This document shows positions 1,706 to 63,700 of a DNA stretch of 64,000 bases, piece after piece. The translations under genes and the position numbers were made by a program. Numbering within the stretch: the first letter of the stretch is position 1; every line of letters starts with the position of its first letter. Where the stretch lies: the NCBI RefSeq assembly GCF_054482595.1, contig NZ_CM137008.1. One strand, written 5' to 3'. Below the pieces are notes generated by a model, which had not been told where the DNA came from, searched no databases, and worked only from the letters and a program-made list of their open reading frames with translations.

Positions 1706-1840
1706 GTTATTTACCTTACTTTACGCGCGCGTAACTCTGGCAGCATCACTGCAGGATAGCGGTCAATTTACCTCCTCAAACGCAACGCAAACCTAGAACG
1801 GCTTCGGCCAACTATTAATCAATACATGCCAGGTTTTACT

Positions 1841-3991
1841 ATGGATACGAAAAAACTATTCAAGCACATACCCTGGGTGATTCTCGGAATCATCGGTGCA
1901 TTCTGCCTCGCGGTAGTTGCATTACGTCGGGGGGAGCACGTCAGTGCCCTGTGGATCGTGGTCGCCTCTGTGTCGGTGTATCTGGTGGCGTATCGCTACT
2001 ACAGTCTGTACATCGCCCAGAAGGTGATGAAACTCGACCCTACGCGCGCGACGCCTGCGGTTATTAACAACGACGGTCTGAACTACGTTCCGACCAACCG
2101 TTACGTGTTGTTTGGTCACCACTTCGCCGCTATCGCCGGTGCCGGTCCGCTGGTCGGTCCGGTTCTCGCCGCACAGATGGGCTACCTGCCTGGCACGCTG
2201 TGGCTGCTGGCGGGGGTAGTACTGGCCGGTGCGGTTCAGGACTTTATGGTGCTGTTTATCTCCTCTCGCCGTAACGGCGCATCTCTCGGTGAGATGATCA
2301 AAGAAGAGATGGGACCAGTACCGGGGACTATCGCGCTGTTTGGCTGTTTCTTAATCATGATCATCATCCTCGCCGTTCTGGCGCTGATTGTGGTTAAAGC
2401 CCTGGCCGAAAGTCCGTGGGGTGTCTTCACCGTTTGCTCAACCGTACCGATTGCGCTGTTTATGGGTATCTACATGCGCTTTATCCGTCCGGGGCGTGTG
2501 GGTGAAGTCTCTGTTATTGGTATCGTGCTGCTGGTTGCCTCTATCTACTTCGGTGGCGTGATTGCTCACGATCCGTACTGGGGTCCGGCACTGACCTTTA
2601 AAGACACCACCATTACCTTCGCGCTGATTGGCTATGCGTTTGTTTCCGCACTGCTGCCGGTGTGGCTGATCCTCGCACCGCGCGACTATCTGGCAACCTT
2701 CCTGAAAATCGGCGTTATCGTCGGCCTGGCGCTGGGTATCGTGGTGCTGAACCCGGAACTGAAAATGCCAGCGATGACCCAGTACATTGACGGTACTGGC
2801 CCGCTGTGGAAAGGCGCTCTGTTCCCGTTCCTGTTCATCACCATCGCCTGTGGTGCGGTATCTGGCTTCCACGCGCTGATCTCTTCCGGTACGACGCCGA
2901 AACTGCTGGCTAACGAAACCGACGCGCGTTTCATTGGCTACGGCGCAATGCTGATGGAGTCCTTCGTGGCGATTATGGCGCTGGTTGCTGCGTCCATCAT
3001 CGAACCGGGTCTTTACTTCGCGATGAACACCCCACCTGCTGGCCTTGGCATCACCATGCCTAACCTGCATGAAATGGGTGGCGAGAATGCGCCGATCATC
3101 ATGGCGCAGCTGAAAGACGTTACCGCACACGCGGCGGCGACCGTCAGCTCCTGGGGCTTCGTGATTTCGCCAGAGCAGATCCTGCAAACCGCGAAAGACA
3201 TTGGAGAGCCTTCTGTCCTGAACCGTGCAGGTGGTGCGCCGACGCTGGCGGTAGGTATCGCTCATGTGTTCCACAAAGTGCTGCCGATGGCTGACATGGG
3301 CTTCTGGTATCACTTCGGTATTCTGTTCGAAGCCCTGTTCATCCTGACCGCGCTGGATGCTGGTACCCGTTCTGGCCGCTTTATGCTGCAAGACCTGCTG
3401 GGTAACTTCATCCCGTTCCTGAAAAAAACCGACTCTCTGGTTGCCGGTATCATCGGTACTGCGGGCTGTGTGGGTCTGTGGGGCTACCTGCTGTATCAGG
3501 GCGTGGTCGATCCGCTGGGCGGCGTTAAGAGCTTGTGGCCGCTGTTCGGTATCTCCAACCAGATGCTGGCAGCCGTGGCGCTGGTACTGGGCACCGTTGT
3601 GCTGATTAAGATGAAGCGCACCCAATACATCTGGGTAACTGTTGTTCCGGCCGTATGGCTGCTTATCTGCACCACCTGGGCGCTGGGCCTGAAACTGTTC
3701 AGCACCAACCCGCAGATGGAAGGCTTCTTCTACATGGCAAGCCAGTACAAAGAGAAGATTGCTAACGGTACTGACCTGACGGCGCAGCAGATTGCCAACA
3801 TGAACCACATCGTTGTGAACAACTACACCAACGCGGGCCTGAGTATTCTGTTCCTGATTGTGGTGTACAGCATCATCTTCTACGGTTTCAAAACCTGGCT
3901 TGCGGTGCGTAACAGCGACAAACGTACTGACAAAGAAACACCGTACGTTCCAATCCCGGAAGGCGGCGTGAAGATCTCTTCGCACCACTAA
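1841..3991 (+). CDS. btsT: Pyruvate/H+ symporter BtsT (CstA family; formerly YjiY), 716 aa
   Basis: ORF-track ORF 1826-3991 gives a CstA-family polytopic membrane protein. The start is taken at the ATG at 1841 (MDTKKLFKHIPWVILG...), which matches K-12 length; the ATG at 1826 lacks an SD. Confidence 0.9.
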   Translation: MDTKKLFKHIPWVILGIIGAFCLAVVALRRGEHVSALWIVVASVSVYLVAYRYYSLYIAQKVMKLDPTRATPAVINNDGLNYVPTNRYVLFGHHFAAIAGAGPLVGPVLAAQMGYLPGTLWLLAGVVLAGAVQDFMVLFISSRRNGASLGEMIKEEMGPVPGTIALFGCFLIMIIILAVLALIVVKALAESPWGVFTVCSTVPIALFMGIYMRFIRPGRVGEVSVIGIVLLVASIYFGGVIAHDPYWGPALTFKDTTITFALIGYAFVSALLPVWLILAPRDYLATFLKIGVIVGLALGIVVLNPELKMPAMTQYIDGTGPLWKGALFPFLFITIACGAVSGFHALISSGTTPKLLANETDARFIGYGAMLMESFVAIMALVAASIIEPGLYFAMNTPPAGLGITMPNLHEMGGENAPIIMAQLKDVTAHAAATVSSWGFVISPEQILQTAKDIGEPSVLNRAGGAPTLAVGIAHVFHKVLPMADMGFWYHFGILFEALFILTALDAGTRSGRFMLQDLLGNFIPFLKKTDSLVAGIIGTAGCVGLWGYLLYQGVVDPLGGVKSLWPLFGISNQMLAAVALVLGTVVLIKMKRTQYIWVTVVPAVWLLICTTWALGLKLFSTNPQMEGFFYMASQYKEKIANGTDLTAQQIANMNHIVVNNYTNAGLSILFLIVVYSIIFYGFKTWLAVRNSDKRTDKETPYVPIPEGGVKISSHH

Positions 3992-4040: not shown

Positions 4041-4244
4041 ATGTTTGGTAACTTAGGACAGGCAAAAAAATATCTCGGCCAGGCGGCGAAGATGTTGATT
4101 GGCATTCCAGACTACGACAACTACGTCGAGCATATGAAGACCAACCATCCCGACAAGCCGTACATGAGCTATGAAGAATTCTTCCGCGAACGCCAGAACG
4201 CGCGCTACGGCGGCGATGGTAAAGGCGGTATGCGCTGTTGTTAA
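4041..4244 (+). CDS. yjiX: YbdD/YjiX-family small protein (DUF466), 67 aa
   Basis: ORF-track ORF immediately downstream of btsT, the conserved CstA-family partner arrangement. Confidence 0.85.
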
Positions 4245-4254
4245 TGGAGAGAGC

Positions 4255-5211
4255 ATGAACCCGATTGCAGTTACCCTACTCACCGGTTTTTTAGGCGCGG
4301 GCAAAACCACCCTGCTGCGCCATATTCTTAATGAACAACACGGCTACAAGATTGCCGTGATTGAAAACGAATTCGGCGAAGTCTCCGTTGATGATCAACT
4401 GATTGGCGACCGCGCCACGCAGATCAAAACGCTGACCAACGGCTGCATCTGCTGTTCGCGCTCCAACGAGCTGGAAGACGCACTACTCGACCTGCTGGAT
4501 AATCTCGACAAGGGCAATATTCAGTTCGACCGTCTGGTCATTGAATGCACCGGCATGGCCGATCCCGGCCCGATTATTCAGACCTTTTTCTCCCATGAGA
4601 TTTTATGCCAGCGTTACCTGCTGGACGGCGTGATTGCGCTGGTGGATGCGGTACATGCCGATGAGCAGATGAACCAGTTCACCATCGCCCAGTCCCAGGT
4701 TGGCTACGCCGACCGTATTCTGCTGACTAAAACCGACGTCGCAGGCGAAGCAGAAAAACTGCGCGAACGCCTGGCGCGCATCAACGCCCGTGCACCGGTC
4801 TACACCGTTACCCACGGCGACATCGACCTGGGCCTGCTGTTCAACACCAACGGTTTTATGCTGGAAGAAAACGTCGTCAGCACCAAACCGCGTTTCCACT
4901 TTATCGCGGATAAACAAAACGATATTTCGTCGATTGTGGTAGAACTGGATTACCCGGTAGATATCAGCGAAGTTTCCCGGGTGATGGAAAACCTGCTGCT
5001 GGAATCGGCGGATAAACTACTGCGTTACAAAGGGATGCTATGGATTGACGGCGAACCTAACCGCCTGCTGTTCCAGGGCGTCCAGCGCCTCTACAGCGCC
5101 GACTGGGACCGCCCGTGGGGCGATGAAAAACCGCATAGCACGATGGTGTTTATCGGGATTCAGCTGCCGGAGGAAGAGATTCGGGCGGCGTTTGCGGGGT
5201 TGAGGAAGTAA
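4255..5211 (+). CDS. yjiA: CobW/COG0523-family P-loop GTPase YjiA, 318 aa
   Basis: ORF 4171-5211 contains a GxxGxGKT P-loop (LLTGFLGAGKTTLL) and a CxCC motif (GCICCS). Start is taken at the ATG at 4255, which is preceded by GGAG and sits just after the yjiX stop. Confidence 0.9.
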   Translation: MNPIAVTLLTGFLGAGKTTLLRHILNEQHGYKIAVIENEFGEVSVDDQLIGDRATQIKTLTNGCICCSRSNELEDALLDLLDNLDKGNIQFDRLVIECTGMADPGPIIQTFFSHEILCQRYLLDGVIALVDAVHADEQMNQFTIAQSQVGYADRILLTKTDVAGEAEKLRERLARINARAPVYTVTHGDIDLGLLFNTNGFMLEENVVSTKPRFHFIADKQNDISSIVVELDYPVDISEVSRVMENLLLESADKLLRYKGMLWIDGEPNRLLFQGVQRLYSADWDRPWGDEKPHSTMVFIGIQLPEEEIRAAFAGLRK

Positions 5212-5534: not shown

Positions 5535-7385
5535 ATGGCAACAATAATCCCAACAATCAGTAGCTGCAACGATAAAATTACTGCCGGAGAGAAAAGGCTG
5601 GCAAGAATTCTGGAAAGAGGACTAGGCGAAGAGTGCTGCTGTTGGTATGACATTCCCACGGGTGATAAGCATCTTCACCCAGATTTTATGATACTTTCGC
5701 CAGAAAAAGGCATTATTTTTCTCGAGGTAAAAGATTGGTTTATTACAAAAATAAAAAAAGCCAACAAGTCTAATGTTTTGTATGAGACACAAAATGGCAT
5801 TCAATCTTTAAAGAATCCGATAGAACAAGTTAGGCGATATGCTTTCGAAGCTGTAAACCAGTTAAAAAAAGACCCCCTATTGTGCCAACAGGAAGATCGT
5901 TACAATGGCAATCTTCTTTTCCCCTATGGATATGGCGTCTACTTTAGTAATATTACACGAGAAGCATTAAATAATAAATTTACTCAAGAAGAGCTGCTCG
6001 GGATCTTCCCATCAGATCTTATCATCTGCAAAGACGAACTAAATGAATTCATGTCAAAAGGGGATGTTTCATCCAAAATACATTCGTTGATTAAATATGA
6101 CTTCAAATGTCATGCTACACAAGAACAGTTGAACAGGATTAGATGGCACTTATACCCCGATGTCAGAATAGAAAGGGAAAAGAGAAGTAAAAACTGTGAT
6201 GAATTTAGTGTCGATGCACCAACCATCATTTCTATCCTGGATACTCAACAGGAACAACTTGCCAGAAGTATGAGAGACGGCCACCGAATAATTCATGGTG
6301 TTGCAGGTTCAGGTAAGACATTGATCCTCTATCATCGCTGTCAGGAATTAGCGAAAAAAAATGACAGCGAAAAGCCAATACTTGTCATTTGCTACAATAT
6401 TACTTTAGCCAAAAAACTTCGGTCGATGTTCATCAATCATCCCTTTGAAGAGAAAATAAAGGTTAATAATTTTCATGCTTGGTGTTTCCAACAAATTAAA
6501 AAAAACAAGATCACCATTCCAGAAGGGGATAATATTTTTGAAAATATGGAGCAAGCGTTGACTGATGGTTTCAACACAGGAAAAATAAAACCAGAACAAT
6601 ACAGCGCTGTATTAATTGATGAAGGACATGATTTTAAGCCCGAATGGTTAAAAATCCTGGCAAAAATGACTGACTCTCAGGACGAGAATTTGCTATTTCT
6701 TTATGATGATGCTCAGTCAATTTATCAAAAAAAGAAAGCATTAGACTTTACACTGTCCAGCGTGGATATTAAAGCGACAGGACGCACAACTATTCTTAAT
6801 ATAAATTATAGAAACACACAACAAATTCTACACTTTGCCAGTTGCATTGCATTTAATTATCTTAATAGCCATATCGATAGTTCTTTAACCTATCATAAAC
6901 CTGCTGCGGGAGGAATGAATGGCGATTATCCCAAGCTTGAACATTTCGACACACAGGACGAAGAAATAGCAAGAGCAGTCAAATGGATTACAGAGCAAAA
7001 TGAACAAGGGATTCCGTGGTCTGAAATTGCTATACTTAGTCCTTCAACTCACATCCTTTCTAACTCTCTAAGTTCTGTACTTGAATCGAAAAATATCCCC
7101 TTTAATCTTATTGTAAGCTCTGCAGATAAAAAGTCCTGGACGCCAGAACAAGAGCGTATTTCTGTTATGCCATTACCCAGCAGCAAAGGACTTGAGTTTC
7201 ACTCAGTTGTCATTATTGATGCAGCGAGAACACGGGATAATAGTGATGATTTGAGTGAGGATATAAAGAGACTCTATGTAGGTTTTACCCGAGCACGTTG
7301 CAATCTCTTGGTAACCTTGCACGGTGAAGGTGCGTTAAATGAGCATCTACTAAGAACCTATAAGCAAAGCCCACAATATATGTAA
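5535..7385 (+). CDS. NERD-domain / SF1 (UvrD-like) helicase fusion protein, 616 aa; candidate single-gene nuclease-helicase defence protein
   Basis: N-terminal NERD-like motif (GEKRLARILERGL ... HPDFMILSPEKGIIFLEVKDW). Helicase motifs: Walker A HGVAGSGKT, motif II VLIDEGHDF, KGLEFHSVVI, and C-terminal LYVGFTRAR. The gene is strongly AT-rich. Confidence 0.7.
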   Translation: MATIIPTISSCNDKITAGEKRLARILERGLGEECCCWYDIPTGDKHLHPDFMILSPEKGIIFLEVKDWFITKIKKANKSNVLYETQNGIQSLKNPIEQVRRYAFEAVNQLKKDPLLCQQEDRYNGNLLFPYGYGVYFSNITREALNNKFTQEELLGIFPSDLIICKDELNEFMSKGDVSSKIHSLIKYDFKCHATQEQLNRIRWHLYPDVRIEREKRSKNCDEFSVDAPTIISILDTQQEQLARSMRDGHRIIHGVAGSGKTLILYHRCQELAKKNDSEKPILVICYNITLAKKLRSMFINHPFEEKIKVNNFHAWCFQQIKKNKITIPEGDNIFENMEQALTDGFNTGKIKPEQYSAVLIDEGHDFKPEWLKILAKMTDSQDENLLFLYDDAQSIYQKKKALDFTLSSVDIKATGRTTILNINYRNTQQILHFASCIAFNYLNSHIDSSLTYHKPAAGGMNGDYPKLEHFDTQDEEIARAVKWITEQNEQGIPWSEIAILSPSTHILSNSLSSVLESKNIPFNLIVSSADKKSWTPEQERISVMPLPSSKGLEFHSVVIIDAARTRDNSDDLSEDIKRLYVGFTRARCNLLVTLHGEGALNEHLLRTYKQSPQYM

Positions 7386-7403
7386 AAATGATAAATTATC
7401 TCC

Positions 7404-7437
7404 ATAACGCCCGGTAACGCTGTACCGGGCGTTATGA
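7404..7437 (+). terminator. Perfect 14-bp inverted repeat hairpin downstream of the NERD-helicase gene
   Basis: cataacgcccggta-acgctg-taccgggcgttatg read directly; no strong T-run follows. Confidence 0.4.
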
Positions 7438-7626
7438 ATGCATATCTAAGATATTAGTCACGCATGATAGCCGCCACCAAAAACACCATCATCTCCCTCG
7501 CCTCTTTGCGGTGATAAAAGCGTACCATTTTGCTGTTAAATTCCAGCGTTTTAGCCGCTGGAATTAACAAGATCAAACTTCCGGCAACGAAGATTCAGTT
7601 ATTACAAATAATTACTGGAAAAAGAG

Positions 7627-7824
7627 ATGAAAAGCGTGGTTGACAACACATCGAAATATCCTGACTGGAGTAAACGCGATGATATTAAAGCGAAACTGAA
7701 AGTTGAACTTATTCTGCTTCTACACAAGCATAAGTTCCCGCCAGTAGCGAATGATGATGTTTATATGGGTGTGCTGGCACAGGTAGAGAATTTTAAAGAA
7801 CATCATATGAGTGCTTTAAATTAA
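7627..7824 (+). pseudogene. 65-aa ORF, possible C-terminal remnant of a displaced restriction-system gene (hypothesis only)
   Basis: Short ORF upstream of symE in the position occupied by hsd genes in K-12. The motif KRDDIKAKLKVELILLLHKHKFPPV resembles my recollection of type I HsdR C-terminal tails. Unverified. Confidence 0.25.
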
Positions 7825-7963: not shown

Positions 7964-7984
7964 ATTTAGCGCGGTGCGGATGTG

Positions 7985-8065
7985 CGCCAACACACCCGCA
8001 CCGCTCATCACAATCACTATTTTCAAGGAATAGCAGTTATGACTGACACGCATTCTATTGCACAA
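7985..8065 (-). ncRNA. symR: Expected position of SymR antisense sRNA (type I antitoxin) overlapping the symE 5' end; approximate coordinates
   Basis: Placed from the known symE/SymR arrangement, not from detected promoter or terminator signals. A 9-bp inverted repeat GCGGTGCGG/CCGCACCGC lies at 7971-8004. Confidence 0.3.
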
Positions 8066-8380
8066 CCGTTCGAAGCAGAAGTCTCCCCGGCAAATAACCG
8101 TCAATTAACCGTGAGTTATGCGAGCCGCTACCCGGATTGCAGCCGTATTCCCGCCATCACCCTGAAAGGTCAGTGGCTGGAAGCCGCCGGTTTTGCCACC
8201 GGCACAGCGGTAGATGTCAAAGTGATGGAAGGCTGTATTGTCCTCACAGCCCAACCACCCGCCGCCGAAGAGAGCGAACTGATGCAGTCGCTGCGCCAGG
8301 TGTGCAAGCTGTCGGCGCGTAAACAAAAGCAGATACAGGAATTTATTGGGGTGATTGCGGGTAAACAAAAAGTTGCCTGA
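8039..8380 (+). CDS. symE: SOS-induced toxin SymE (type I toxin-antitoxin), 113 aa
   Basis: Internal ATG at 8039 of ORF 7982-8380 gives [33 protein letters not shown]..., matching SymE. Confidence 0.85.
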
Positions 8381-8426: not shown

Positions 8427-10520
8427 TTATACCAACGCGCTCTCCATCTGTTTTTCAAATGCCTGACGAATTAATCCCATAATGTAAGGAAGTTGTGCGA
8501 GGTCGCTGAAACAAATTTCCACATCACCATTGCCCCATCGCCCAACATTTGTCACATCTTTGGCAATACCTTTCGGATCGACCAGTTCATGAAACTGCAT
8601 ATTAAGCGACAATCGCAGTCGGCTTTTTTGCGGCACAACATCAACAAAATTCGTTTCAGCTTTAAACGCAATATATAGCTTCAATACTTCCTGCGTGATC
8701 CCTGCGTCCAGGCGCATAACTTCATCGCGAAGATGATCGAATAACACCCGGCTATGCGAACCATCAGCAAGAAAAGGATAATCACTCAGGCTGTAACTGG
8801 TTTTGTTTTCAGGCTGCCCCCGATAAACAGCTAAAACCTCTTCAGAAAGAGAAGGCGCTTGCCAGACCTGAATCGCGAGATCGGCCAGACGATCGGCTCG
8901 GGCGTGAATGGCGGCTTCATCCCATTTTTCGCACTGTCCAAGACCGATATTCAAATAGAGCGGGCTATGCTTAAAGCCGTCTTCAATATCGCGTTTTTCC
9001 GCGAAAGGTCTGTCACTGTAGCGGGAGTTATAGCGCGTTAATGTGAGATTCCCCAACGTATGCAACAGTTCTTTATGAATGCGTTGCCAGTCACTTCCCA
9101 GCTCTTCACGCCATTTAGCCGACAAATTTTCGTTCTGCGGCATAATATGCTCAATCGTAAACTCTTCCACGCGCTCTCTGCGTTTATCGTTTTCCAGTCG
9201 TCGTAACCAGTAGCTGCGACTACGGAAGTTATAGAGATCGCGAACTTTTAATTCCCGTTTAAATTCATCATCGTTGGGGAAACGACGATATGAAGGTAGA
9301 TTCAAAAAATGTACCTGAATACTTTCCAGATAATTTTCTTTATTAATAACTTTATAAAAAGTGGCAAATGTCTTGTTCAAAGAATTTGTCGGAATTGCAC
9401 ATACTGCACGGCGGAAAACATAAGATTCAATTAAACGAATTATGCTCAGAAAATCTTCGTGAGACAAAACGCCATTTTTATAGTCATGATAAAGCGCCAG
9501 TAAGAAAGGATACGCCACATCGACCTTTAACTCGCGCAAATCCTGAAAAGCCGTAGCAAGCGATTTGTCACTTTCTTTTCCCAATGCCATTGCACAGTAA
9601 TACTCCGCGTAGATATGAATATCTTCAACCAGCCGATCTACGCCTTTTTCAGCAACACTCTGGCTGCGGGCATGGAGTTTAAATGCCTCATAGACTTCAT
9701 CTGTCCGAGGGATCTCCCCCGTTTTTACCGTCAGATAATGACGCATAAAACTGTCAAAATATTCGCTGTAACCTTGCTGACCAAAGGCGACTTCCATTGG
9801 ACGCCAGTGATCTTCATACAATCGGGTTTGATGCTCTGGTTCGAGGCCCATCAGAATAAAATTGCGCACCAGATCGGCCTGACTTAACGCCTTACCGGTG
9901 GAGTTCATACTTTCAAAAATCAGTTGCGGATTATCCTGACCACGATTAAGCGCCACATCGACAATTAATAACTTTGCTAACCCACGACATAAGGGGATCA
10001 AGTCATCACCGAGTTTGGCAATTTGTTCATCAAAGAAAGTAAAGTTTTCCATTATTCGATGGGAATAGTTTTCTGGCATTGGTCTTTGTTTTATTAACGC
10101 CAGTAAACTGTCTTTATCAGTCTCGGTCAGCAGTAATTTAAAACCTTTCTCGCCGGACTCATAAGGATTGAGCAAATAATAATTACGCAATTTCATTGCC
10201 GAAAAGCCATCAAAAACTTCGTCTTCGCCAAGATGGCGCGATAAAGCCTCAATCAGCAACATTGCGGTCGTCAGCCGCTGCTGACCATCAATGACCAGCA
10301 ACGGAGAAATACCAGAAACCTGATACAATCCCTGCTCTATATAAACAACCGAACCGATAAAATGCGCTGATATATCGTCACGCTTTCCTGCACGAATGAT
10401 GTCGTCCCAAAGTTGCCGACATTGTTGTTCTGTCCATGAATAAGTCCGTTGATAAATGGGAATAACAAACTGCTGCGAACGTTTTAAAAAATCGAGTAAG
10501 CGAGCTTCTGTAGCTTTCAT
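8427..10520 (-). CDS. DUF262 + DUF1524 (GmrSD-family) putative Type IV modification-dependent restriction endonuclease, 697 aa
   Basis: N-terminal DUF262/ParB-like motifs IPIYQRTYSW and VIDGQQRLTT. C-terminal His-Me finger/DUF1524-like motifs FTIEHIMPQ, GNLTL and YNS. Confidence 0.7.
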   Translation of the reverse strand: MKATEARLLDFLKRSQQFVIPIYQRTYSWTEQQCRQLWDDIIRAGKRDDISAHFIGSVVYIEQGLYQVSGISPLLVIDGQQRLTTAMLLIEALSRHLGEDEVFDGFSAMKLRNYYLLNPYESGEKGFKLLLTETDKDSLLALIKQRPMPENYSHRIMENFTFFDEQIAKLGDDLIPLCRGLAKLLIVDVALNRGQDNPQLIFESMNSTGKALSQADLVRNFILMGLEPEHQTRLYEDHWRPMEVAFGQQGYSEYFDSFMRHYLTVKTGEIPRTDEVYEAFKLHARSQSVAEKGVDRLVEDIHIYAEYYCAMALGKESDKSLATAFQDLRELKVDVAYPFLLALYHDYKNGVLSHEDFLSIIRLIESYVFRRAVCAIPTNSLNKTFATFYKVINKENYLESIQVHFLNLPSYRRFPNDDEFKRELKVRDLYNFRSRSYWLRRLENDKRRERVEEFTIEHIMPQNENLSAKWREELGSDWQRIHKELLHTLGNLTLTRYNSRYSDRPFAEKRDIEDGFKHSPLYLNIGLGQCEKWDEAAIHARADRLADLAIQVWQAPSLSEEVLAVYRGQPENKTSYSLSDYPFLADGSHSRVLFDHLRDEVMRLDAGITQEVLKLYIAFKAETNFVDVVPQKSRLRLSLNMQFHELVDPKGIAKDVTNVGRWGNGDVEICFSDLAQLPYIMGLIRQAFEKQMESALV

Positions 10521-33976: not shown

Positions 33977-34648
33977 TTTGCGCACTCCTGACGTTTAGCA
34001 ACATATGCGGCTTGCCCTGAACACCGGGCACCACTGTATTGATGCTCATTTTCCATAGCCATTCCCTTTTGTTCATTACATCCATGTCAGTCTGAGACAG
34101 GCCTGAATCCTGTCAGCAAAGTATAAAACCTTACTTGCCTATGAATATCTACTGACTTTTCAGGAAAAAAGTCATGATTTGATAAAAATCATCAAACTCA
34201 AAAAAAAACCGCTAGTATATTCTGAATATTCCGAATAGTTACGTAGATGAAAATACTTGTCACCGCTGCTACTTAATTCCGGTGGGAAATTATTTATTTC
34301 CGCATAATCATCTATGTATTATTTGAAACAATTAGTTTGTAAATAATATAAATTAATAACATATCAAATACATCAAAAATACCATTCACAGGCATTATTA
34401 ATATAGACCTCAACATAGCAACATCAAATTCCAATTAGTAATAAGATATGCTTTTAAATTGCATGCAAATAATTTTAAATGAGCGTTTTTTGATACTTTA
34501 GAGTGTTTCCCACCCTTTAATATCACTGTGTAGAGTTGATATCACTACAACAGAAACATGCATGTCATTTGTTTACTTCTCTTTTTACTACAGAAAAATT
34601 TATCTATTTTTCTAAACATCAGTGAAATACTCATAAAAGGTAACTATT

Positions 34649-57366: not shown

Positions 57367-60300
57367 TTACTCGCTAACCATCTTACTGAATAACTTCTCC
57401 AGATAAACGGGGCCTGTATCCTCAATAAAAAGCACATTTCTGGCTTCCAGATTTTCTTTTGAGTCAGGTACGTTTACTAAGTCAACATAACAAGTTTCAG
57501 AAACAATAAATGCACTTAATGATAAGTTATCATCCGATAATTTATGTTCAAGATTCTTAATTTCTTTATATAATCCGAACTTCGGATCATCAAGATTAAG
57601 ATTGCGAATGCCTTTTGGATCAATAAGACTTAGCCATTGTTTACCACTTTTATCATCGACTAACCACAATAAGAAATCCGGATAAAAATTACCCGCAGTA
57701 GCAAAGCCCAGGCCTTTATTTTTAGAATCCGCATTTCTTAGCAGATATAAACTTTTATCACCAATAATTTTCTGCCCTTTTGTCGAATCAACAAAAGACT
57801 GAAGATCCTGAACAAAAGTAATCTCGCTTGGCGCACCAAGTGCTGCCGGTCGCATTTTTAGCGGTATATTGGCATTTTTTTCAATCGAAAGAAGCGGGTA
57901 ATAGAGATGTTTATCAAAGGTAATAGCAACCATCCCGGATGCACTCCAGGATTTTGCTTTACCGATTTCGCCGTCGATGACCAATTGTTGTAATTGTTCC
58001 AGCCGACTGGCATAAGCCAACCCATCATCAGTTTCTTCGATCTCGAAATGGTACATTTTGATCATACCAGGATCATCTTCTTTCACCTGCGTGACTTCAT
58101 AAAACTGACCTTCATAAGCATTTTTCAAGGTGTTGTAAAAGCGATCAGTATAATCAGTCAGCAGACGAAGCATAATATCTTCCTGCTTAGCAATATCTGC
58201 ATATTGCTTAATCTCAAGCTCTGAAGCTGGAATCAAAAGGGTATACCAACTATTTCCGATCTTTGTCTTACCGGTACAAAAGTCGATCAAACGTTGTTTA
58301 TCCACACGTAAATTTGACCAGCCGCGTTGTAGTTTATAATTCTGAATGGCGAGATAAAGCCGATCAAAATCAAATGCACTAATGATTTTATAATCTAACT
58401 TCGCTTCATTGCGCACGTTAACCGGAGTATTGTCCCCTTTTCTGCTGGTATCAATCGACTCAAGTTTCGGGTATAAGTCCAGCTTAATATGCGGCTGCTT
58501 AATTTTCCCCTGAAAATCAGCAGGAACTTCATACAATTCAGGAAAATAGACACGTTTAAAGCCGAGTCTTTGATTATCTTTATAACCATCTTTAAGCTTA
58601 AGTGTTTTAAGCCTGGTTGCTGGCATATTTGGCCGAGTTTCAAAATTCAGCTCAAGGATCTCGTCACTTGGCGTAATCCCTTCATCTTCCAGGTATTGTT
58701 TAAAGGTTGCCATGTAATCGGCACGTACACCGAATACATTCAGTGTCTCTAATTTTTCCAGATGCAACCCTTTCGGACGCTCACCGGGTGTACTGCGTTT
58801 CAAAGAATAATTGCGACCTTTAAGGCGTACGCCACGACCAAATAACTGAATGATCTGTGAACCTTCTCCACGGCCCATATTGAGCAATCCCATCGTTGAG
58901 ACGCGCCAACTGCTCCAGCCTTCAGTAAATTTTCGCGAGCCGATCAAAATATGTAGTCGCGAGTCTTTGTCATTTAACGTATGAAAGAGTGACTTTGCAA
59001 AATCATCTCTCTGATAATCAAATGTCGTATCCTCTTCACACATTTTGTAAAGAGACGGTGCATCACCAATATTGATAAGGCCAAACGGTTCGGCCTCACC
59101 AACCTGTAATGCCAGTTCACCTTTACTGCCTATTAAATTCAGAACTCGCAGTCGCTGACCAGAGTGAGTGGTGTTAAACAAGCGAGAAAGAATATCTGCG
59201 TAGATATCTTCCGGAGCGTTCATTAGTGCAGTAAAGCGATTTTCAAAAATGTTACGCTCTTTGGTATCGAGGATTCGCGCTTTATTTTTAATGAGATCGT
59301 TAATCCACGCTTTTGCCTGCGTTTCGTGGTTTAAAAACCATGCTAAAAAACGCAATACTGCGTGAATGTCTGAATCTTCACCACTTACCGTATTACCGAC
59401 AAAAACCCACAGCGGTTTTTCGATATTAAATTCACTTAATTTTTCTTTATTCTTATTGAATAAATATTGTTGCTGATAAAAGCTGAGCAAACACGCGGTA
59501 AAATACTCATACCGACGCTCATCTTTTTTATCCTCTTCAGGATTAAGGTTAAGAATCAGTGATTCTTTACCATAACCATCCTCATAGAAGAATTTATAGG
59601 AGTAATCGAACAGAATCGATTTTCCATAGACCTCTCGCGTCGCCTGAATACGCGCATCTCGTTTTTCTTCGCTGGTTAATGCTATTTGCGCTAACTCTTC
59701 TTCGTTCAGTTTACCTAAGGCCGTTGTTTCAAAAAGCAGCTTTGCTTTTTTCTTCTGAATTTCTGTTTCAACTGCCTCAACATTATTGCCACCGGCTACT
59801 GCCTGGCCAAAAGTTGCTGAATATTCAAACGCAAATCCGTCACGTGTTAATTTGTCACGACGGCGCATCCAGGCACCAGCAGCACTTCCGGTGCCTTTAT
59901 GCCCTTCATCAATCAGAACCAGATTGTTGCCTTCAAATGCCTCAACGGCAACAGTTTTGTCACCCATTTCATCGGCAAGTTTATTGATATCAATAACTTC
60001 AATCGTGCCTTTGAAGGGCGCAGATTTACTCTTATCGAATAACTGGTATTGGGTAAATCCTGAGTTTTCCAGCTCATCTAAATGTTGCTTCGACAGGCGT
60101 TCATCCGGAGTAAGCAGGATGATTTTGTCGGGGTAATGGTGGGTATTACCGTTCTGGAAATAATGTAAGTATTGCAAAATATTGACATGCAATAGCAGTG
60201 TCTTACCAGAACCAGTAGCATTCCAGTATGCCAGTTTATTCAAATCATCCAGAATATATGATTTGAACTGATTAGCCCGGTCTTTTGCTGTTTTATCATT

Positions 60301-60747
60301 TTCAGCATTGTATGCTGCCAGCTCGTTATTTAGCCCATCGAGTAATTGCTGTTTACGATTGAAGTACCAGTCCAGGTAGATCTCGGTAAACAAAAGCGAC
60401 AAGTACTGAAAATATTTCATGTTCAGCACAGTGTCTTCTTTGCGATTACGGTGCTCAGTTATCTGCTGCCAGTGCTGCACGATATTGAGATCGTAACGAC
60501 GCAGTTCATCGAGATCGATAAGATCGACCTCGAATAAATAGTTACTCAGCTCATGGAAGAACAAACTTTGGCCATCCTCATGGATGCCTTCAAAGCGATC
60601 TTCACCTAACCGATTCTTCAGACCTTGCAATGTGCCATCTTTAAAAAAATGGAACATAAAGCGGTTCAAAACCAGTTGCTTATGAAAGCTCAGTTTGCTG
60701 TTTGTCTCTTTTTTAACAGCTTTACCGGTGGTCGGTTTTTTAGCCAT
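57367..60747 (-). CDS. Type III restriction Res-like subunit: SF2 helicase core with C-terminal PD-(D/E)XK nuclease motif, 1126 aa
   Basis: Motif I WNATGSGKT, motif II VLIDEGHKG, motif III SATFG, motif VI QLFGRGVRL; C-terminal YPDFLLWLVDD ... LIDPKG (PD ... DxK). Strong GGAGGAGG SD; start lies 2 nt after the Mod-like stop. Confidence 0.75.
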   Translation of the reverse strand: MAKKPTTGKAVKKETNSKLSFHKQLVLNRFMFHFFKDGTLQGLKNRLGEDRFEGIHEDGQSLFFHELSNYLFEVDLIDLDELRRYDLNIVQHWQQITEHRNRKEDTVLNMKYFQYLSLLFTEIYLDWYFNRKQQLLDGLNNELAAYNAENDKTAKDRANQFKSYILDDLNKLAYWNATGSGKTLLLHVNILQYLHYFQNGNTHHYPDKIILLTPDERLSKQHLDELENSGFTQYQLFDKSKSAPFKGTIEVIDINKLADEMGDKTVAVEAFEGNNLVLIDEGHKGTGSAAGAWMRRRDKLTRDGFAFEYSATFGQAVAGGNNVEAVETEIQKKKAKLLFETTALGKLNEEELAQIALTSEEKRDARIQATREVYGKSILFDYSYKFFYEDGYGKESLILNLNPEEDKKDERRYEYFTACLLSFYQQQYLFNKNKEKLSEFNIEKPLWVFVGNTVSGEDSDIHAVLRFLAWFLNHETQAKAWINDLIKNKARILDTKERNIFENRFTALMNAPEDIYADILSRLFNTTHSGQRLRVLNLIGSKGELALQVGEAEPFGLINIGDAPSLYKMCEEDTTFDYQRDDFAKSLFHTLNDKDSRLHILIGSRKFTEGWSSWRVSTMGLLNMGRGEGSQIIQLFGRGVRLKGRNYSLKRSTPGERPKGLHLEKLETLNVFGVRADYMATFKQYLEDEGITPSDEILELNFETRPNMPATRLKTLKLKDGYKDNQRLGFKRVYFPELYEVPADFQGKIKQPHIKLDLYPKLESIDTSRKGDNTPVNVRNEAKLDYKIISAFDFDRLYLAIQNYKLQRGWSNLRVDKQRLIDFCTGKTKIGNSWYTLLIPASELEIKQYADIAKQEDIMLRLLTDYTDRFYNTLKNAYEGQFYEVTQVKEDDPGMIKMYHFEIEETDDGLAYASRLEQLQQLVIDGEIGKAKSWSASGMVAITFDKHLYYPLLSIEKNANIPLKMRPAALGAPSEITFVQDLQSFVDSTKGQKIIGDKSLYLLRNADSKNKGLGFATAGNFYPDFLLWLVDDKSGKQWLSLIDPKGIRNLNLDDPKFGLYKEIKNLEHKLSDDNLSLSAFIVSETCYVDLVNVPDSKENLEARNVLFIEDTGPVYLEKLFSKMVSE

Positions 60748-60749
60748 TC

Positions 60750-63700
60750 TTAAACCTCCTCCGCAAACATCAGGTTCAAGAATTCAGGTTCGATCTGGCG
60801 GATTTTCAGGCTACGAACAATCTCGCCGTCTTCTTCATCAACGGTAAAGGCGGTAGGCAAGTTATGATCGCCATTGATATAGATAACGTCATACGTGTTT
60901 TCTTTTGCATACAAATCAAATCGGTTAGCATATTTATTCAATTCTTCATAACCGATCTTGTCGCAATCGCGCCACAGAATAAGGGTACGCTCGCCTGTTG
61001 GCAGCGTACCTTCAACACGCACATAGCCACGTTCGATATTGGATTCGATGGATTTCACATGTAATCCAATGAGATAGTTGAAAGTTTCAACTAAATCGAT
61101 GTTTTTACGCTCAGTGGCACCGGCGGAATCCGTCGCAATATCCATTTCGTAGTTAAATGGTTTTTTGAAATTATCGATTCCGAGAAAAGAATCTTTACTC
61201 TCATTTTTAATGAGATAATTTAATAGATAATCATTCCTCACATCTGAAGGCAATGTTTCGAAAAGATCTATGGGAGATTTTTTCAGTACTATATTATTTA
61301 AGCAATCTTCATAGCTTTCTAGTTTAATTGTTTTAAGAATATGTGATATACCGTTTTTATCCTGTGGATAACCTTTATTCCACTTATCGCTATAAACGGC
61401 TTTTACAATTCTAGCTTTTATAACTGAATCAGAATGTTCTCCCATTTCAACTAATATATATTTATGATCTTCAGATTTTTCTCTATTTCTATTAATAACA
61501 GCATGTGCGGTGGTTCCACTGCCGCCAAAAAGATCGACTATGGTTTCATTATTAGCACTATGCCATACTGAATCAATAACGCGTTCCATAGTACCTAAGG
61601 ATTTTGGATAAGAAAACAAACCTGCAGAGCCAAACATGGACGTTAATAAATTTGTGCCACCTATGGTAGCATTATATTGTGATCCTTGCCAAATACTAGG
61701 AAGCAGTAACCTTCTTGCGCTATCATGATATAATCTGTTTATGACAAATTTGTTTGAACTTACCAATTCACCTACTTCAATTGCTTTTTTAGCCCCTTCA
61801 TAAGAAAGCGACCAAACTCTTTCTTCCCCATTCTCACCAATGGGATAGACTCTTTTTAAACCTTCTTTGGTTTCACCTACCGGATAATTACCTTTTTCTA
61901 AAGGAACAGGTGGTGGTTCGACTCCTTTAACTTCAAATGTATCAGGGTCAACCAAAACTGCAAAAAAGCTTTCTGGACGACCAGGATTACCAATCCTAAA
62001 ATTATTATCTCCGGTACCAGCTCTTCTAAAACCTCTAGTTCGAATTCCATCCTCCACACTATCCCCTTTGAGAATATCCATTCCTTCTGGTATAGAAAAC
62101 AGACAATATTCATGTGTTCTCGAAACATTTGTTCTACCTGTCCCAGACCCAGGATAGTGCTCAACGATACATTGTAAAACCTCTCTTTCTGGATTGATAC
62201 TTTTTTCCAATTCTTTTAAAAGAGACATTTCTGTATCATCAATAGCATAACAAAAAACACCGTTATTATTTAATAGTTTTTTAGATAAAATGATTCTATC
62301 AGCCATTAATGTAGCCCATGAAGAATCCTTATATCCATTTTTATATAAGATAGGAGTTGCATCAGTATTATATGGTGGATCAAGATATATTATGCTTGTA
62401 CTTTTATCAAACTTAGTCTCAAGGATTTTTAGGGCTTGATAATTTTCAGAGTTGACCAATAGCCCATTAATCTCATTATCAATATTATCAATTGATCGAA
62501 TCAGTTCACATTTAAATTTAGAATCAAAAAAAGTAGTATCAACCATCAGATATGGTGAACTCTTGAGAAATTTCATATCCCGAGAGTTATGCTGTTGAAA
62601 TAGACCTAGCGTACTCCAATGTTTAAATTGTTTATCATTTACTAATATAGTTTGATAAAGAGCATCTGGAATTCTATCTAAAGTAATACAGTATTCCGTA
62701 GAAACAACAAACTTCTTCTTAGTCCAAAGTTTTTTCTGGAAATTCTCAATTTGTGCCAAAAATGTAATGAGTTCCAGTGCAACAGTACGCAAACATTGAA
62801 TCATGCGCAATTGTTTCTCAATATTGGCAAACACTTCTGCATTTTGCACATTATCGAGATTCATTACTTCATTTTTAATATAAAAATCCAGTTCGTTCGT
62901 TAAAAAACCACCGAGATCTTTATGGATAAAGTAGTCTGCTGTATTACGCTGGGTATAAGTTGTAAGGTGACGCTCCAACTCTGTACGTGACGGATTTTTT
63001 TCTGTTGGCGCACGTTTAGCAAGATCAACCCAATGCTGTTGAACTGTTTTATCTGCCAGAATTGTTGAAATAGCGGACTGTACTAAAGCATCCTGCTTAG
63101 TGCCCTTTTTCATTGCCTTATATTCGAAGTGAATAACTAACTCTTCTGTTTCAACGAGTTTACCGTCCACCACAGATGAGTTTTTCACCACTTCTACTGG
63201 CTTATATTCTTGTTCATACTCATCACCTTCTTCATCAATTTTGGTACGAACATGTGGCTCAATAAGTACAAAGCAGCGATCTAATTCATTATCCTTACGG
63301 TTATCTTTTGCTGTGTCCGCTGCGAGCAATTTAAAGCTAACTTTACGACCATCATCTAATTTAAATGAATAATTAGCAAAGTTTTCGCCACTTTTAATGT
63401 AGTACTGGTCCTTATTTGCCCAGTGCAACATCACTTCTTCGCCAGAATAAGGGATGGCGTAGGTATTACCTTTATAACGGCGTTTGCTGATAAAATCGCC
63501 GTTGTCATAATAACGAGAAAAGAAAGTGAGCAGATGGGAAAATACTGCATTTTCATGCTCATTTGCTCCGGATGCCATAGCCGCCAGTTGCTTTTTAAGC
63601 TCCTGTACTTTCGGGCTATCAGCAGGGTCCACACCCGCATCAGTTGCCGCTTTTATTGTCAGTTGCAACTGATGTTCTAATTCTGATTTATTGGCATTTC

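What the first reader, a model, noticed from the sequence alone, without database searches (positions are those of the whole stretch)
6354..6505. Homopolymeric A tracts inside the NERD-helicase coding sequence
A8 runs at 6354-6361 and around 6498-6505 lie within the ORF. In an AT-rich gene these may be chance, but they are potential slipped-strand ON/OFF sites for a costly defence gene.
Basis: seen in the sequence. Interest (0 to 1): 0.2.

Follow-up and report, generated by a model that had tools for sequence, protein, structure and literature searches.

The report
Two chance poly-A runs, no switch
The two runs of eight A's are real, but they are simply Lys-Lys-Asn codons in an AT-rich, horizontally acquired E. 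coli nuclease-helicase gene, and they behave like ordinary mutation-prone homopolymers rather than an evolved on/off switch.

Summary
Both A8 runs sit exactly where reported (6354-6361, 6498-6505). Each reads in frame as AAA AAA AAY (Lys-Lys-Asn) in a 616-aa NERD + UvrD-type helicase gene (5535-7385, +). The gene lies in the E. coli immigration control region, after yjiA.

- **Chance:** the runs are no more than chance gives. With the protein and the gene's own codon usage kept, 1.5 such runs are expected, and P(two or more) = 0.50.
- **Conservation:** the runs are not conserved. Run 2 is AAAGAAAA in 81 of 99 complete E. coli genomes that carry the gene, and it arose from a recent G-to-A change. 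Orthologues at 63% identity encode neither Lys-Lys pair.
- **Length:** run 1 is A8 in 100 of 100 complete genomes. Across public assemblies, predicted slipped products (A7, A9) occur in 28 contigs against at least 1,909 intact copies (about 1.4% or less). Several of those 28 come from visibly error-prone assemblies.
- **Controls:** shorter A7 and A6 runs in the same gene vary too, at lower frequency. Most disrupted copies carry lesions elsewhere, including IS insertions.

Verdict: an ordinary homopolymer hot spot, not a contingency locus. Interest is low.

The parts
5535..7385 (+). 616-aa NERD + UvrD-type SF1 helicase gene that holds both runs. It is a single gene between yjiA and an hsdR remnant, at 37.7% G+C.
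   Evidence: ORF and translation; Pfam; PADLOC PDLC01087 'NERD+UvrD' 4.7e-141 over residues 1-597; present once, on the chromosome, in 100 of 5426 complete E. coli genomes.
6354..6361 (+). Run 1: A8 = AAA AAA AA(T), K274-K275-N276. It starts 12 residues after the Walker A motif, in a variable stretch.
   Evidence: A8 in 100/100 complete genomes (45+47+8 exact haplotype matches). Residues are 10%/2%/6% identical across 118 homologues, against a mean of 50%. A7 in 23 public contigs and A9 in 3.
6498..6505 (+). Run 2: A8 = AAA AAA AA(C), K322-K323-N324. This state is specific to the window's allele.
   Evidence: It reads AAAGAAAA (K-E-N) in SMS-3-5, E2348/69, PAR, GDSC2227PM and others. A8 is found in only 18 of 99 complete genomes. 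A7 is found in 2 public contigs.
5583..5864 (+). NERD (PD-(D/E)xK-type nuclease) domain, residues 17-110. P49-D50 and E64-V65-K66 are invariant.
   Evidence: Pfam; D50, E64 and K66 are identical in 118/118 aligned homologues.
6228..7331 (+). SF1 helicase core, residues 232-599. The Walker A motif GVAGSGKT is at 6297-6320.
   Evidence: Pfam UvrD-helicase / AAA_19 / UvrD_C; Walker A is 99-100% conserved; PcrA/UvrD are the nearest solved structures, matching over parts only.
5753..5759 (+). A7 run used as an internal control. The other control runs are A7 at 5864-5870 and 6727-6733, and A6 at 6411-6416.
   Evidence: Predicted +/-1 products of these shorter runs also occur in public assemblies, at lower counts: 3+3, 4, 1+1 and 1 contigs.

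Best explanation
The two A8 runs are incidental by-products of coding. A Lys-Lys-Asn tripeptide written with the gene's preferred AAA Lys codon gives eight A's in a row, and this happens twice in an A-rich (35% A), low-G+C gene acquired by horizontal transfer. The runs have no regulatory role. Like any run of eight identical bases, they are the most indel-prone spots in the gene, so occasional A7 (and perhaps A9) null alleles arise there. These form part of the ordinary decay of a dispensable accessory gene, alongside frameshifts at other sites and IS insertions. Shown here: position, frame, chance expectation, lack of conservation, near-invariance among genomes, and the scaling of variants with run length. 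Inferred: that the rare clean A7 copies are real replication-slippage mutants rather than long-read sequencing errors, and that they carry no selected function.
For: (1) Chance: with the protein and codon usage kept, 1.5 runs of A>=8 are expected and P(>=2) = 0.50. The gene uses AAA for 35 of its 49 Lys codons and has 8 Lys-Lys positions. (2) No conservation: run 2 is AAAGAAAA in every other haplotype sequenced. That includes GDSC2227PM, which is 99.8% identical to the window, so the A8 state is a recent G->A (E323K) change. The nearest orthologues (Enterobacter, Leclercia, Salmonella; 63% identity) read N-N-I-(E/D) at run 1 and have no Lys-Lys at run 2. The K-K-N residues are 2-29% conserved, against 50% for the whole protein. 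(3) Length: run 1 is A8 in 100/100 complete genomes. No listed hit at run 2 has an indel (60 of 99 listed). (4) Rarity: exact look-ups find slipped products in 18+5 (run 1 A7), 3 (run 1 A9) and 2 (run 2 A7) contigs. (5) Generic behaviour: in the same gene, A7 runs give 6, 4 and 2 contigs, and the A6 run gives 1. This matches the known exponential rise of indel rate with run length in E. coli (PMC8510543). (6) Most disrupted copies are broken elsewhere: +T at 6004 (40 contigs and 2 complete genomes), a deletion in an A4 run at 5791 (9), delA at 6516 (6), +T at 6044 (3), IS903B, and IS1.
Against: Length variants at both runs do exist. Four of them sit in otherwise clean contigs. L009 is identical to 27 complete genomes over 14.9 kb apart from A8->A7. 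L019 has 0 mismatches over 16.4 kb, L027 has 0 over 12.6 kb, and L021 has 2 over 6.1 kb. Run 1 A7 occurs on at least three haplotypes, so the site is hit repeatedly. Other long ORFs in the window carry no A/T>=8 run where shuffles expect 3.6 in total, so this gene escapes an avoidance seen elsewhere. No switching rate was measured and no read-level data could be examined.
Confidence: 0.86

Rival explanations
1. Contingency locus. Run 1 (and run 2 in the window's allele) would be a selected slipped-strand switch that turns a costly NERD-helicase defence gene off and on within lineages.
For: The runs are in frame, and +/-1 truncates the protein just after the Walker A motif, to 276/290 aa. A7 alleles occur on at least three haplotypes, some in clean contigs. 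The gene lies in a defence hot spot (PMC12707154) and matches a PADLOC candidate model.
Against: There is no enrichment over the codon expectation. Run 2 is absent from 81 of 99 carrier genomes. The Lys-Lys pairs are absent from orthologues. Run 1 is A8 in 100/100 complete genomes, and variants make up about 1.4% or less of public copies. Variants are almost all A7, with no spread of lengths. All three A9 contigs are in assemblies with other indels nearby; two of them (L024, L026) are plainly error-ridden. Shorter runs behave the same way, in proportion to their length. From general knowledge rather than any test here: known homopolymer switches are usually longer than 8, and E. coli is mismatch-repair proficient and mainly uses inversion or Dam-based phase variation.
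Confidence: 0.06
2. Programmed recoding. Transcriptional slippage or -1 ribosomal frameshifting on A AAA AAT would produce a second, truncated NERD-only product from the same gene.
For: A_AAA_AAT formally fits the X_XXY_YYZ slippery pattern. Slipped products would end 2-16 residues later, leaving the NERD domain plus the P-loop.
Against: The shifted frames hold no extended ORF. The run is absent from orthologues. Bacterial surveys of functional transcriptional slippage used runs of 9 A/T (PMC1088944), and this run has 8. No stimulatory element was sought or seen, and the downstream codon is Asn rather than the efficient AAG.
Confidence: 0.02
3. There is no true variation at all: every A7/A9 call in public assemblies is a homopolymer sequencing or assembly error.
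For: L010, L020, L023 and L024-L026 carry other indels in nearby genes, for example a split btsT and a split yjiA. Two runs from one project (ERR15602711, ERR15602671) show A7 on two different alleles. The SMS-like A7 contigs share the commonest haplotype rather than a private one. A7 greatly outnumbers A9. None of the 100 complete RefSeq genomes has a variant.
Against: One A7 contig carries a 'k141_' name, a style I take from general knowledge to indicate a short-read MEGAHIT metagenome assembly (L022). It shares a rare haplotype with an independent run (L023). Several contigs are error-free over 6-16 kb, including at their other A7/A8 runs. Frameshifts at non-repeat sites in the same gene are clearly inherited (40, 9 and 6 contigs), so the gene does tolerate loss.
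Confidence: 0.3

Closest known systems
Homopolymer contingency loci (slipped-strand phase variation, as described for Neisseria, Haemophilus, Campylobacter and Helicobacter genes; general knowledge)
   Same: There is a mononucleotide run inside an ORF, so a +/-1 change gives a truncated protein. The gene concerned is a plausible defence gene whose loss could be advantageous.
   Different: The run is only 8 bases long and no more frequent than codon usage predicts. It is not conserved between alleles or orthologues, and it is essentially fixed at one length in the population.
Generic homopolymer indel hot spots in E. coli (indel rate rises exponentially with run length; PMC8510543)
   Same: Variant counts in the same gene fall steeply from A8 (about 21 contigs on the SMS-like allele) to A7 (0-6 per run) to A6 (1).
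   Different: Nothing distinguishes this case from the generic one. Whether each variant is a mutation or a sequencing error could not be settled.
PADLOC-DB model PDLC01087 'C3a187, NERD+UvrD' (candidate defence-associated protein family)
   Same: The match covers the full length: 4.7e-141, residues 1-597 against profile positions 1-545 of 559. The domain order is the same, the nuclease and Walker A motifs are invariant, and the gene sits in the immigration control region.
   Different: Which system the model belongs to, and whether any member has been tested against phage, could not be established from the papers held.
Nhi / Nhi-like nuclease-helicase immunity; GajB; NERD-helicases associated with defence reverse transcriptases
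   Same: These combine a nuclease with an SF1 helicase. NERD is listed for Nhi-like and Mokosh type I (PMC10952713).
   Different: The matches are partial or weak: Nhi 4.6e-9 over residues 235-435, GajB 8e-21 over the helicase C-terminal half, RTasNERD-Hel 7.8e-23. No partner gene (GajA, a reverse transcriptase) lies next to it.

Membership tests
Homopolymer contingency (phase-variable) locus | A repeat tract placed so that a +/-1 unit change switches the reading frame or promoter | tested here: met
   Both runs are in frame. A7/A9 give products of 290/276 aa (run 1) and 341/332 aa (run 2) instead of 616 aa.
Homopolymer contingency (phase-variable) locus | A tract longer or more frequent than composition and codon usage predict | tested here: not met
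   Synonymous shuffles give a mean of 1.5 runs of A>=8, with P(>=2) = 0.50.
Homopolymer contingency (phase-variable) locus | Tract length polymorphic among isolates, with several lengths at appreciable frequency | tested here: not met
   Run 1 is A8 in 100/100 complete genomes. Variants are found in 28 contigs against >=1909 intact copies.
Homopolymer contingency (phase-variable) locus | Tract retained across alleles and orthologues while the flanks diverge | tested here: not met
   Run 2 is AAAGAAAA in 81 of 99 carrier genomes. Orthologues lack both Lys-Lys pairs, although the flanking Walker A and xWC motifs are invariant.
Homopolymer contingency (phase-variable) locus | High, reversible switching rate within a clone | not testable with these tools
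   This needs fluctuation assays or read-level data. Only consensus assemblies were available.
NERD + UvrD helicase family (PADLOC PDLC01087) | N-terminal NERD nuclease domain with an intact PD...ExK motif | tested here: met
   Pfam NERD 5.9e-10 over residues 17-110. D50, E64 and K66 are invariant in 118 sequences.
NERD + UvrD helicase family (PADLOC PDLC01087) | C-terminal SF1/UvrD helicase core and a full-length profile match | tested here: met
   UvrD-helicase, AAA_19 and UvrD_C hits. PDLC01087 scores 4.7e-141 over nearly the whole profile.
NERD + UvrD helicase family (PADLOC PDLC01087) | Protection against phage or plasmids | not testable with these tools
   No experimental report was found in the papers held.
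Nhi (nuclease-helicase immunity) | A full-length match to the Nhi profile | tested here: not met
   PDLC02372 scores 4.6e-9 and covers only residues 235-435.
Programmed transcriptional slippage / ribosomal frameshift site | A slippery run (9 or more A/T in the bacterial survey) giving access to an extended alternative ORF, conserved among relatives | tested here: not met
   The run has 8 bases. The shifted frames stop after 2-17 codons. The run is absent from orthologues. The survey criterion comes from PMC1088944.

The most novel reading that the evidence does not exclude
Run 1 could be a low-rate but real ON/OFF site. The roughly 1% of A7 copies, seen on at least three haplotypes, would be true and reversible OFF variants of a NERD-UvrD defence gene in the E. 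coli immigration control region. That would give E. coli a rare example of homopolymer-based phase variation of an anti-phage gene.
Probability: 0.05. Interest if true: 0.35.

Novelty: not a real feature. Interest (0 to 1): 0.08.

Why it matters
It matters little. The result removes a candidate phase-variation site from the list. It also gives a worked control: exact look-up of predicted slipped products at the suspect runs and at shorter runs in the same gene, for telling a contingency locus from an ordinary homopolymer. The host gene is the more interesting object. It is an untested single-gene NERD-UvrD candidate defence protein sitting where mrr-hsdRMS lies in K-12. It is carried by about 2% of complete E. 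coli genomes, including E2348/69 and SMS-3-5, and it has been lost repeatedly to frameshifts and IS insertions.

Tried and rejected
- **Short queries failed.** 56-bp queries centred on each run found nothing, probably because the low-complexity filter masks the run and leaves flanks under 28 bp. They were replaced by 90-bp queries.
- **A suspected run-2 variant was something else.** P0129 (341 aa, 6 contigs) looked like a run-2 A7 variant. It is a single-base deletion at about 6516, outside any run, on an allele whose run 2 is already interrupted.
- **A lineage argument was dropped.** I considered that the 18 SMS-like A7 contigs form a clonal lineage, which would show a real inherited mutation, because they share one haplotype. 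That haplotype is the commonest one, and it carries A8 in about 27 complete genomes, so the argument does not hold.
- **The two frameshifted RefSeq pseudogenes are not at a run.** Strains A25 and DCE7 carry +T at GGGAT|CTTCC, about position 6004.
- **No rate figures could be quoted.** The key wild-type indel-rate paper was requested under a PMC id recalled from memory and was not found in the library, so no per-generation rates are given.
- **The PADLOC label stayed unexplained.** The origin of 'C3a187' could not be traced in the papers held.
- **Curated resources added nothing closer.** NCBIfam and the PDB sequence search gave only sub-threshold or partial UvrD/PcrA/HelD matches.

Full report
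**The observation.** They lie in ORF 5535-7385 (+), and each starts at codon position 1. They read AAA AAA AAT and AAA AAA AAC, which gives K274-K275-N276 and K322-K323-N324.

**The gene.**
- The product has an N-terminal NERD domain and a UvrD-type SF1 helicase core.
- It matches PADLOC model PDLC01087 ('NERD+UvrD') at 4.7e-141 over its full length.
- P49-D50, E64-V65-K66 and the Walker A motif GVAGSGKT are invariant across 118 homologues, so the protein looks functional.
- Matches to Nhi, GajB and reverse-transcriptase-associated NERD-helicases are partial or weak.
- No curated NCBIfam family and no close solved structure applies.

**The setting.** The window is E. coli chromosome, with the order:
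- btsT (1826-3991)
- yjiX
- yjiA (4171-5211)
- the NERD-helicase
- a 65-aa C-terminal remnant of a type I restriction subunit (7627-7824)
- symE (7982-8380)
- GmrSD (8427-10520, minus strand)
- yjiS and yjiR

. [quoted passage not shown] The gene is 37.7% G+C and its neighbours btsT and yjiA are about 55-56%. It is present once, on the chromosome, in 100 of 5426 complete E. coli genomes, including E2348/69 and SMS-3-5.

**Is it more than chance?** It is not.
- The gene is 35% A, uses AAA for 35 of its 49 Lys codons, and has eight Lys-Lys positions.
- With the protein kept and synonymous codons permuted, 1.5 runs of A>=8 are expected, and P(two or more) = 0.50.
- Shuffling codon order gives P = 0.08. 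Shuffling single bases gives P = 0.03.
- The other ORFs of at least 250 aa in the window hold no A/T>=8 run where 3.6 are expected. So this gene does not show the mild avoidance seen elsewhere, but it shows no excess either.

**Are the runs conserved?** They are not.
- Run 2 reads AAAGAAAA (K-E-N) in SMS-3-5, E2348/69, PAR, 2022H048, A25 and DCE7.
- It also reads AAAGAAAA in GDSC2227PM, which is 99.8% identical to the window overall. The A8 state is therefore a recent G-to-A (E323K) change.
- A8 at run 2 is found in 18 of the 99 complete genomes that matched this segment.
- Run 1 is shared by all E. coli alleles, but these are at least 98% identical to each other, so sharing says little.
- The nearest orthologues (63% identity; Enterobacter, Leclercia, Salmonella) read N-N-I-(E/D) at run 1 and have no Lys-Lys at run 2.
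- The K-K-N residues are 2-29% conserved, against 50% for the protein as a whole, and they are flanked by invariant motifs.

All 100 complete genomes match exactly one of three 88-90-bp haplotypes around run 1, and each haplotype carries A8: 45 + 47 + 8. For run 2, all 60 of the 99 hits that were listed have equal query and subject spans.

**Does the length vary across public assemblies?** I predicted the truncated proteins that A7 or A9 would give on three alleles. I then looked up those exact sequences among about 15 billion public proteins.

| Predicted variant | Allele | Protein | Contigs |
|---|---|---|---|
| Run 1 A7 | SMS-like | P0122 | 18 |
| Run 1 A7 | window-like | P0124 | 5 |
| Run 1 A9 | SMS-like | P0123 | 3 |
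| Run 2 A7 | window | P0125 | 2 |

Length variants are therefore about 1.4% of copies or less.

**Are those variants real?** The evidence is mixed.
- *Error-prone contigs.* All three A9 contigs carry other indels in their flanks, most plainly L024 and L026. L010, L020 and L023 do too, for example a split btsT at an A7 run and a split yjiA. Two runs from one project show A7 on two different alleles.
- *Clean contigs.* L009 is identical to 27 complete genomes over 14.9 kb apart from the missing A. L019 (GCA_974481765.1) has no mismatch to the window over 16.4 kb, and L027 has none over 12.6 kb. L022, whose 'k141_' name suggests a short-read metagenome assembly, shares a rare haplotype and the A7 with an independent run.

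I conclude that some variants are probably true null alleles and some are artefacts. Only the raw reads can decide.

**Controls in the same gene.** Shorter runs vary as well:
- A7 at 5753: 3 contigs with A6 and 3 with A8.
- A7 at 5864: 4 contigs.
- A7 at 6727: 1 + 1 contigs.
- A6 at 6411: 1 contig.

. The counts fall steeply with run length, as expected for any homopolymer. Indel rates in E. coli are reported to rise exponentially with run length (PMC8510543).

**Where most disrupted copies are broken.** The lesions lie elsewhere:
- +T at about 6004, not in a run: 40 contigs, plus the RefSeq pseudogenes of strains A25 and DCE7.
- A deletion in an A4 run at 5791: 9 contigs.
- delA at 6516: 6 gut-metagenome contigs.
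- +T at 6044: 3 contigs.
- An IS903B insertion in strain LR-62-2.
- An IS1 insertion at the 3' end in strain THO-010.

.

**Interpretation.** The runs are Lys-Lys-Asn codons written in the gene's preferred codons. They are the most indel-prone sites in a dispensable accessory gene that is being lost piecemeal in some lineages. They lack the hallmarks of a contingency locus on four counts:
- no excess over expectation;
- no conservation;
- one dominant length;
- no spread of lengths.

Programmed slippage or frameshifting is also unlikely. The run has 8 bases, whereas the bacterial survey of functional slippage used 9 (PMC1088944). The shifted frames stop within 2-17 codons, and orthologues lack the run.

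**What remains open.**
- The switching rate and reversibility were not measured.
- The platform behind each variant contig is unknown.
- One complete genome gave no match for the run-2 segment and was not identified.
- Only 40 of the 648 members of the main protein cluster could be read, so the list of lesions is partial.
- Neither the defence role of the gene nor its cost was tested.

Noticed in passing
window 19599 (inside ORF 19196-21523, +): There is a hexanucleotide repeat, (AAGATA)n, in a pentapeptide-repeat protein gene. The window has one more unit than strain XH990, which is otherwise identical apart from 2 SNPs over 27.4 kb. This is a true in-frame repeat-length polymorphism, unlike the A8 runs.
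   Followed up: partly
window 8427-10520 (-): The GmrSD-type restriction gene is an intact 697-aa ORF (GmrSD_N, GmrSD_C, DUF5655). RefSeq annotates the identical sequence in XH990 as a 388-aa CDS plus a DUF262 pseudogene. About 28 complete genomes with the SMS-like helicase allele lack GmrSD altogether, with symE directly followed by yjiS.
   Followed up: partly
window 7627-7824 (+): A 65-aa ORF matches only the C-terminal end of a type I restriction R subunit (T1RH-like_C, 1.5e-14). It looks like the scar of an hsd system replaced by the NERD-helicase gene. It is annotated as a partial pseudogene in every relative examined.
   Followed up: partly
window 5535-7385 in relatives (L004, L005, L006, L007, L028-L033): The NERD-helicase has been inactivated independently several times: +T at about 6004, delA at about 6516, a deletion in A4 at 5791, an IS903B insertion, and an IS1 insertion at the 3' end. 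This suggests the gene is dispensable or counter-selected in some lineages.
   Followed up: partly
window 57367-63869 (-): Two large low-G+C ORFs lie back to back: 1039 aa with an N6_N4 DNA methylase domain, and 1126 aa with ResIII/DEAD helicase domains. This may be a second restriction or defence module near the end of the window.
   Followed up: no
window 21763-21770 and 34200-34208: The window's only other long A runs are an A8 and an A9. Both lie in low-G+C stretches outside any ORF of at least 250 aa. Their position relative to promoters was not examined.
   Followed up: no
window 7401-7438: A 16-bp-stem G+C-rich inverted repeat lies 16 bases after the helicase stop codon. The scan flagged it as terminator-like on the minus strand. 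It may end the gene or be a REP-like element.
   Followed up: no
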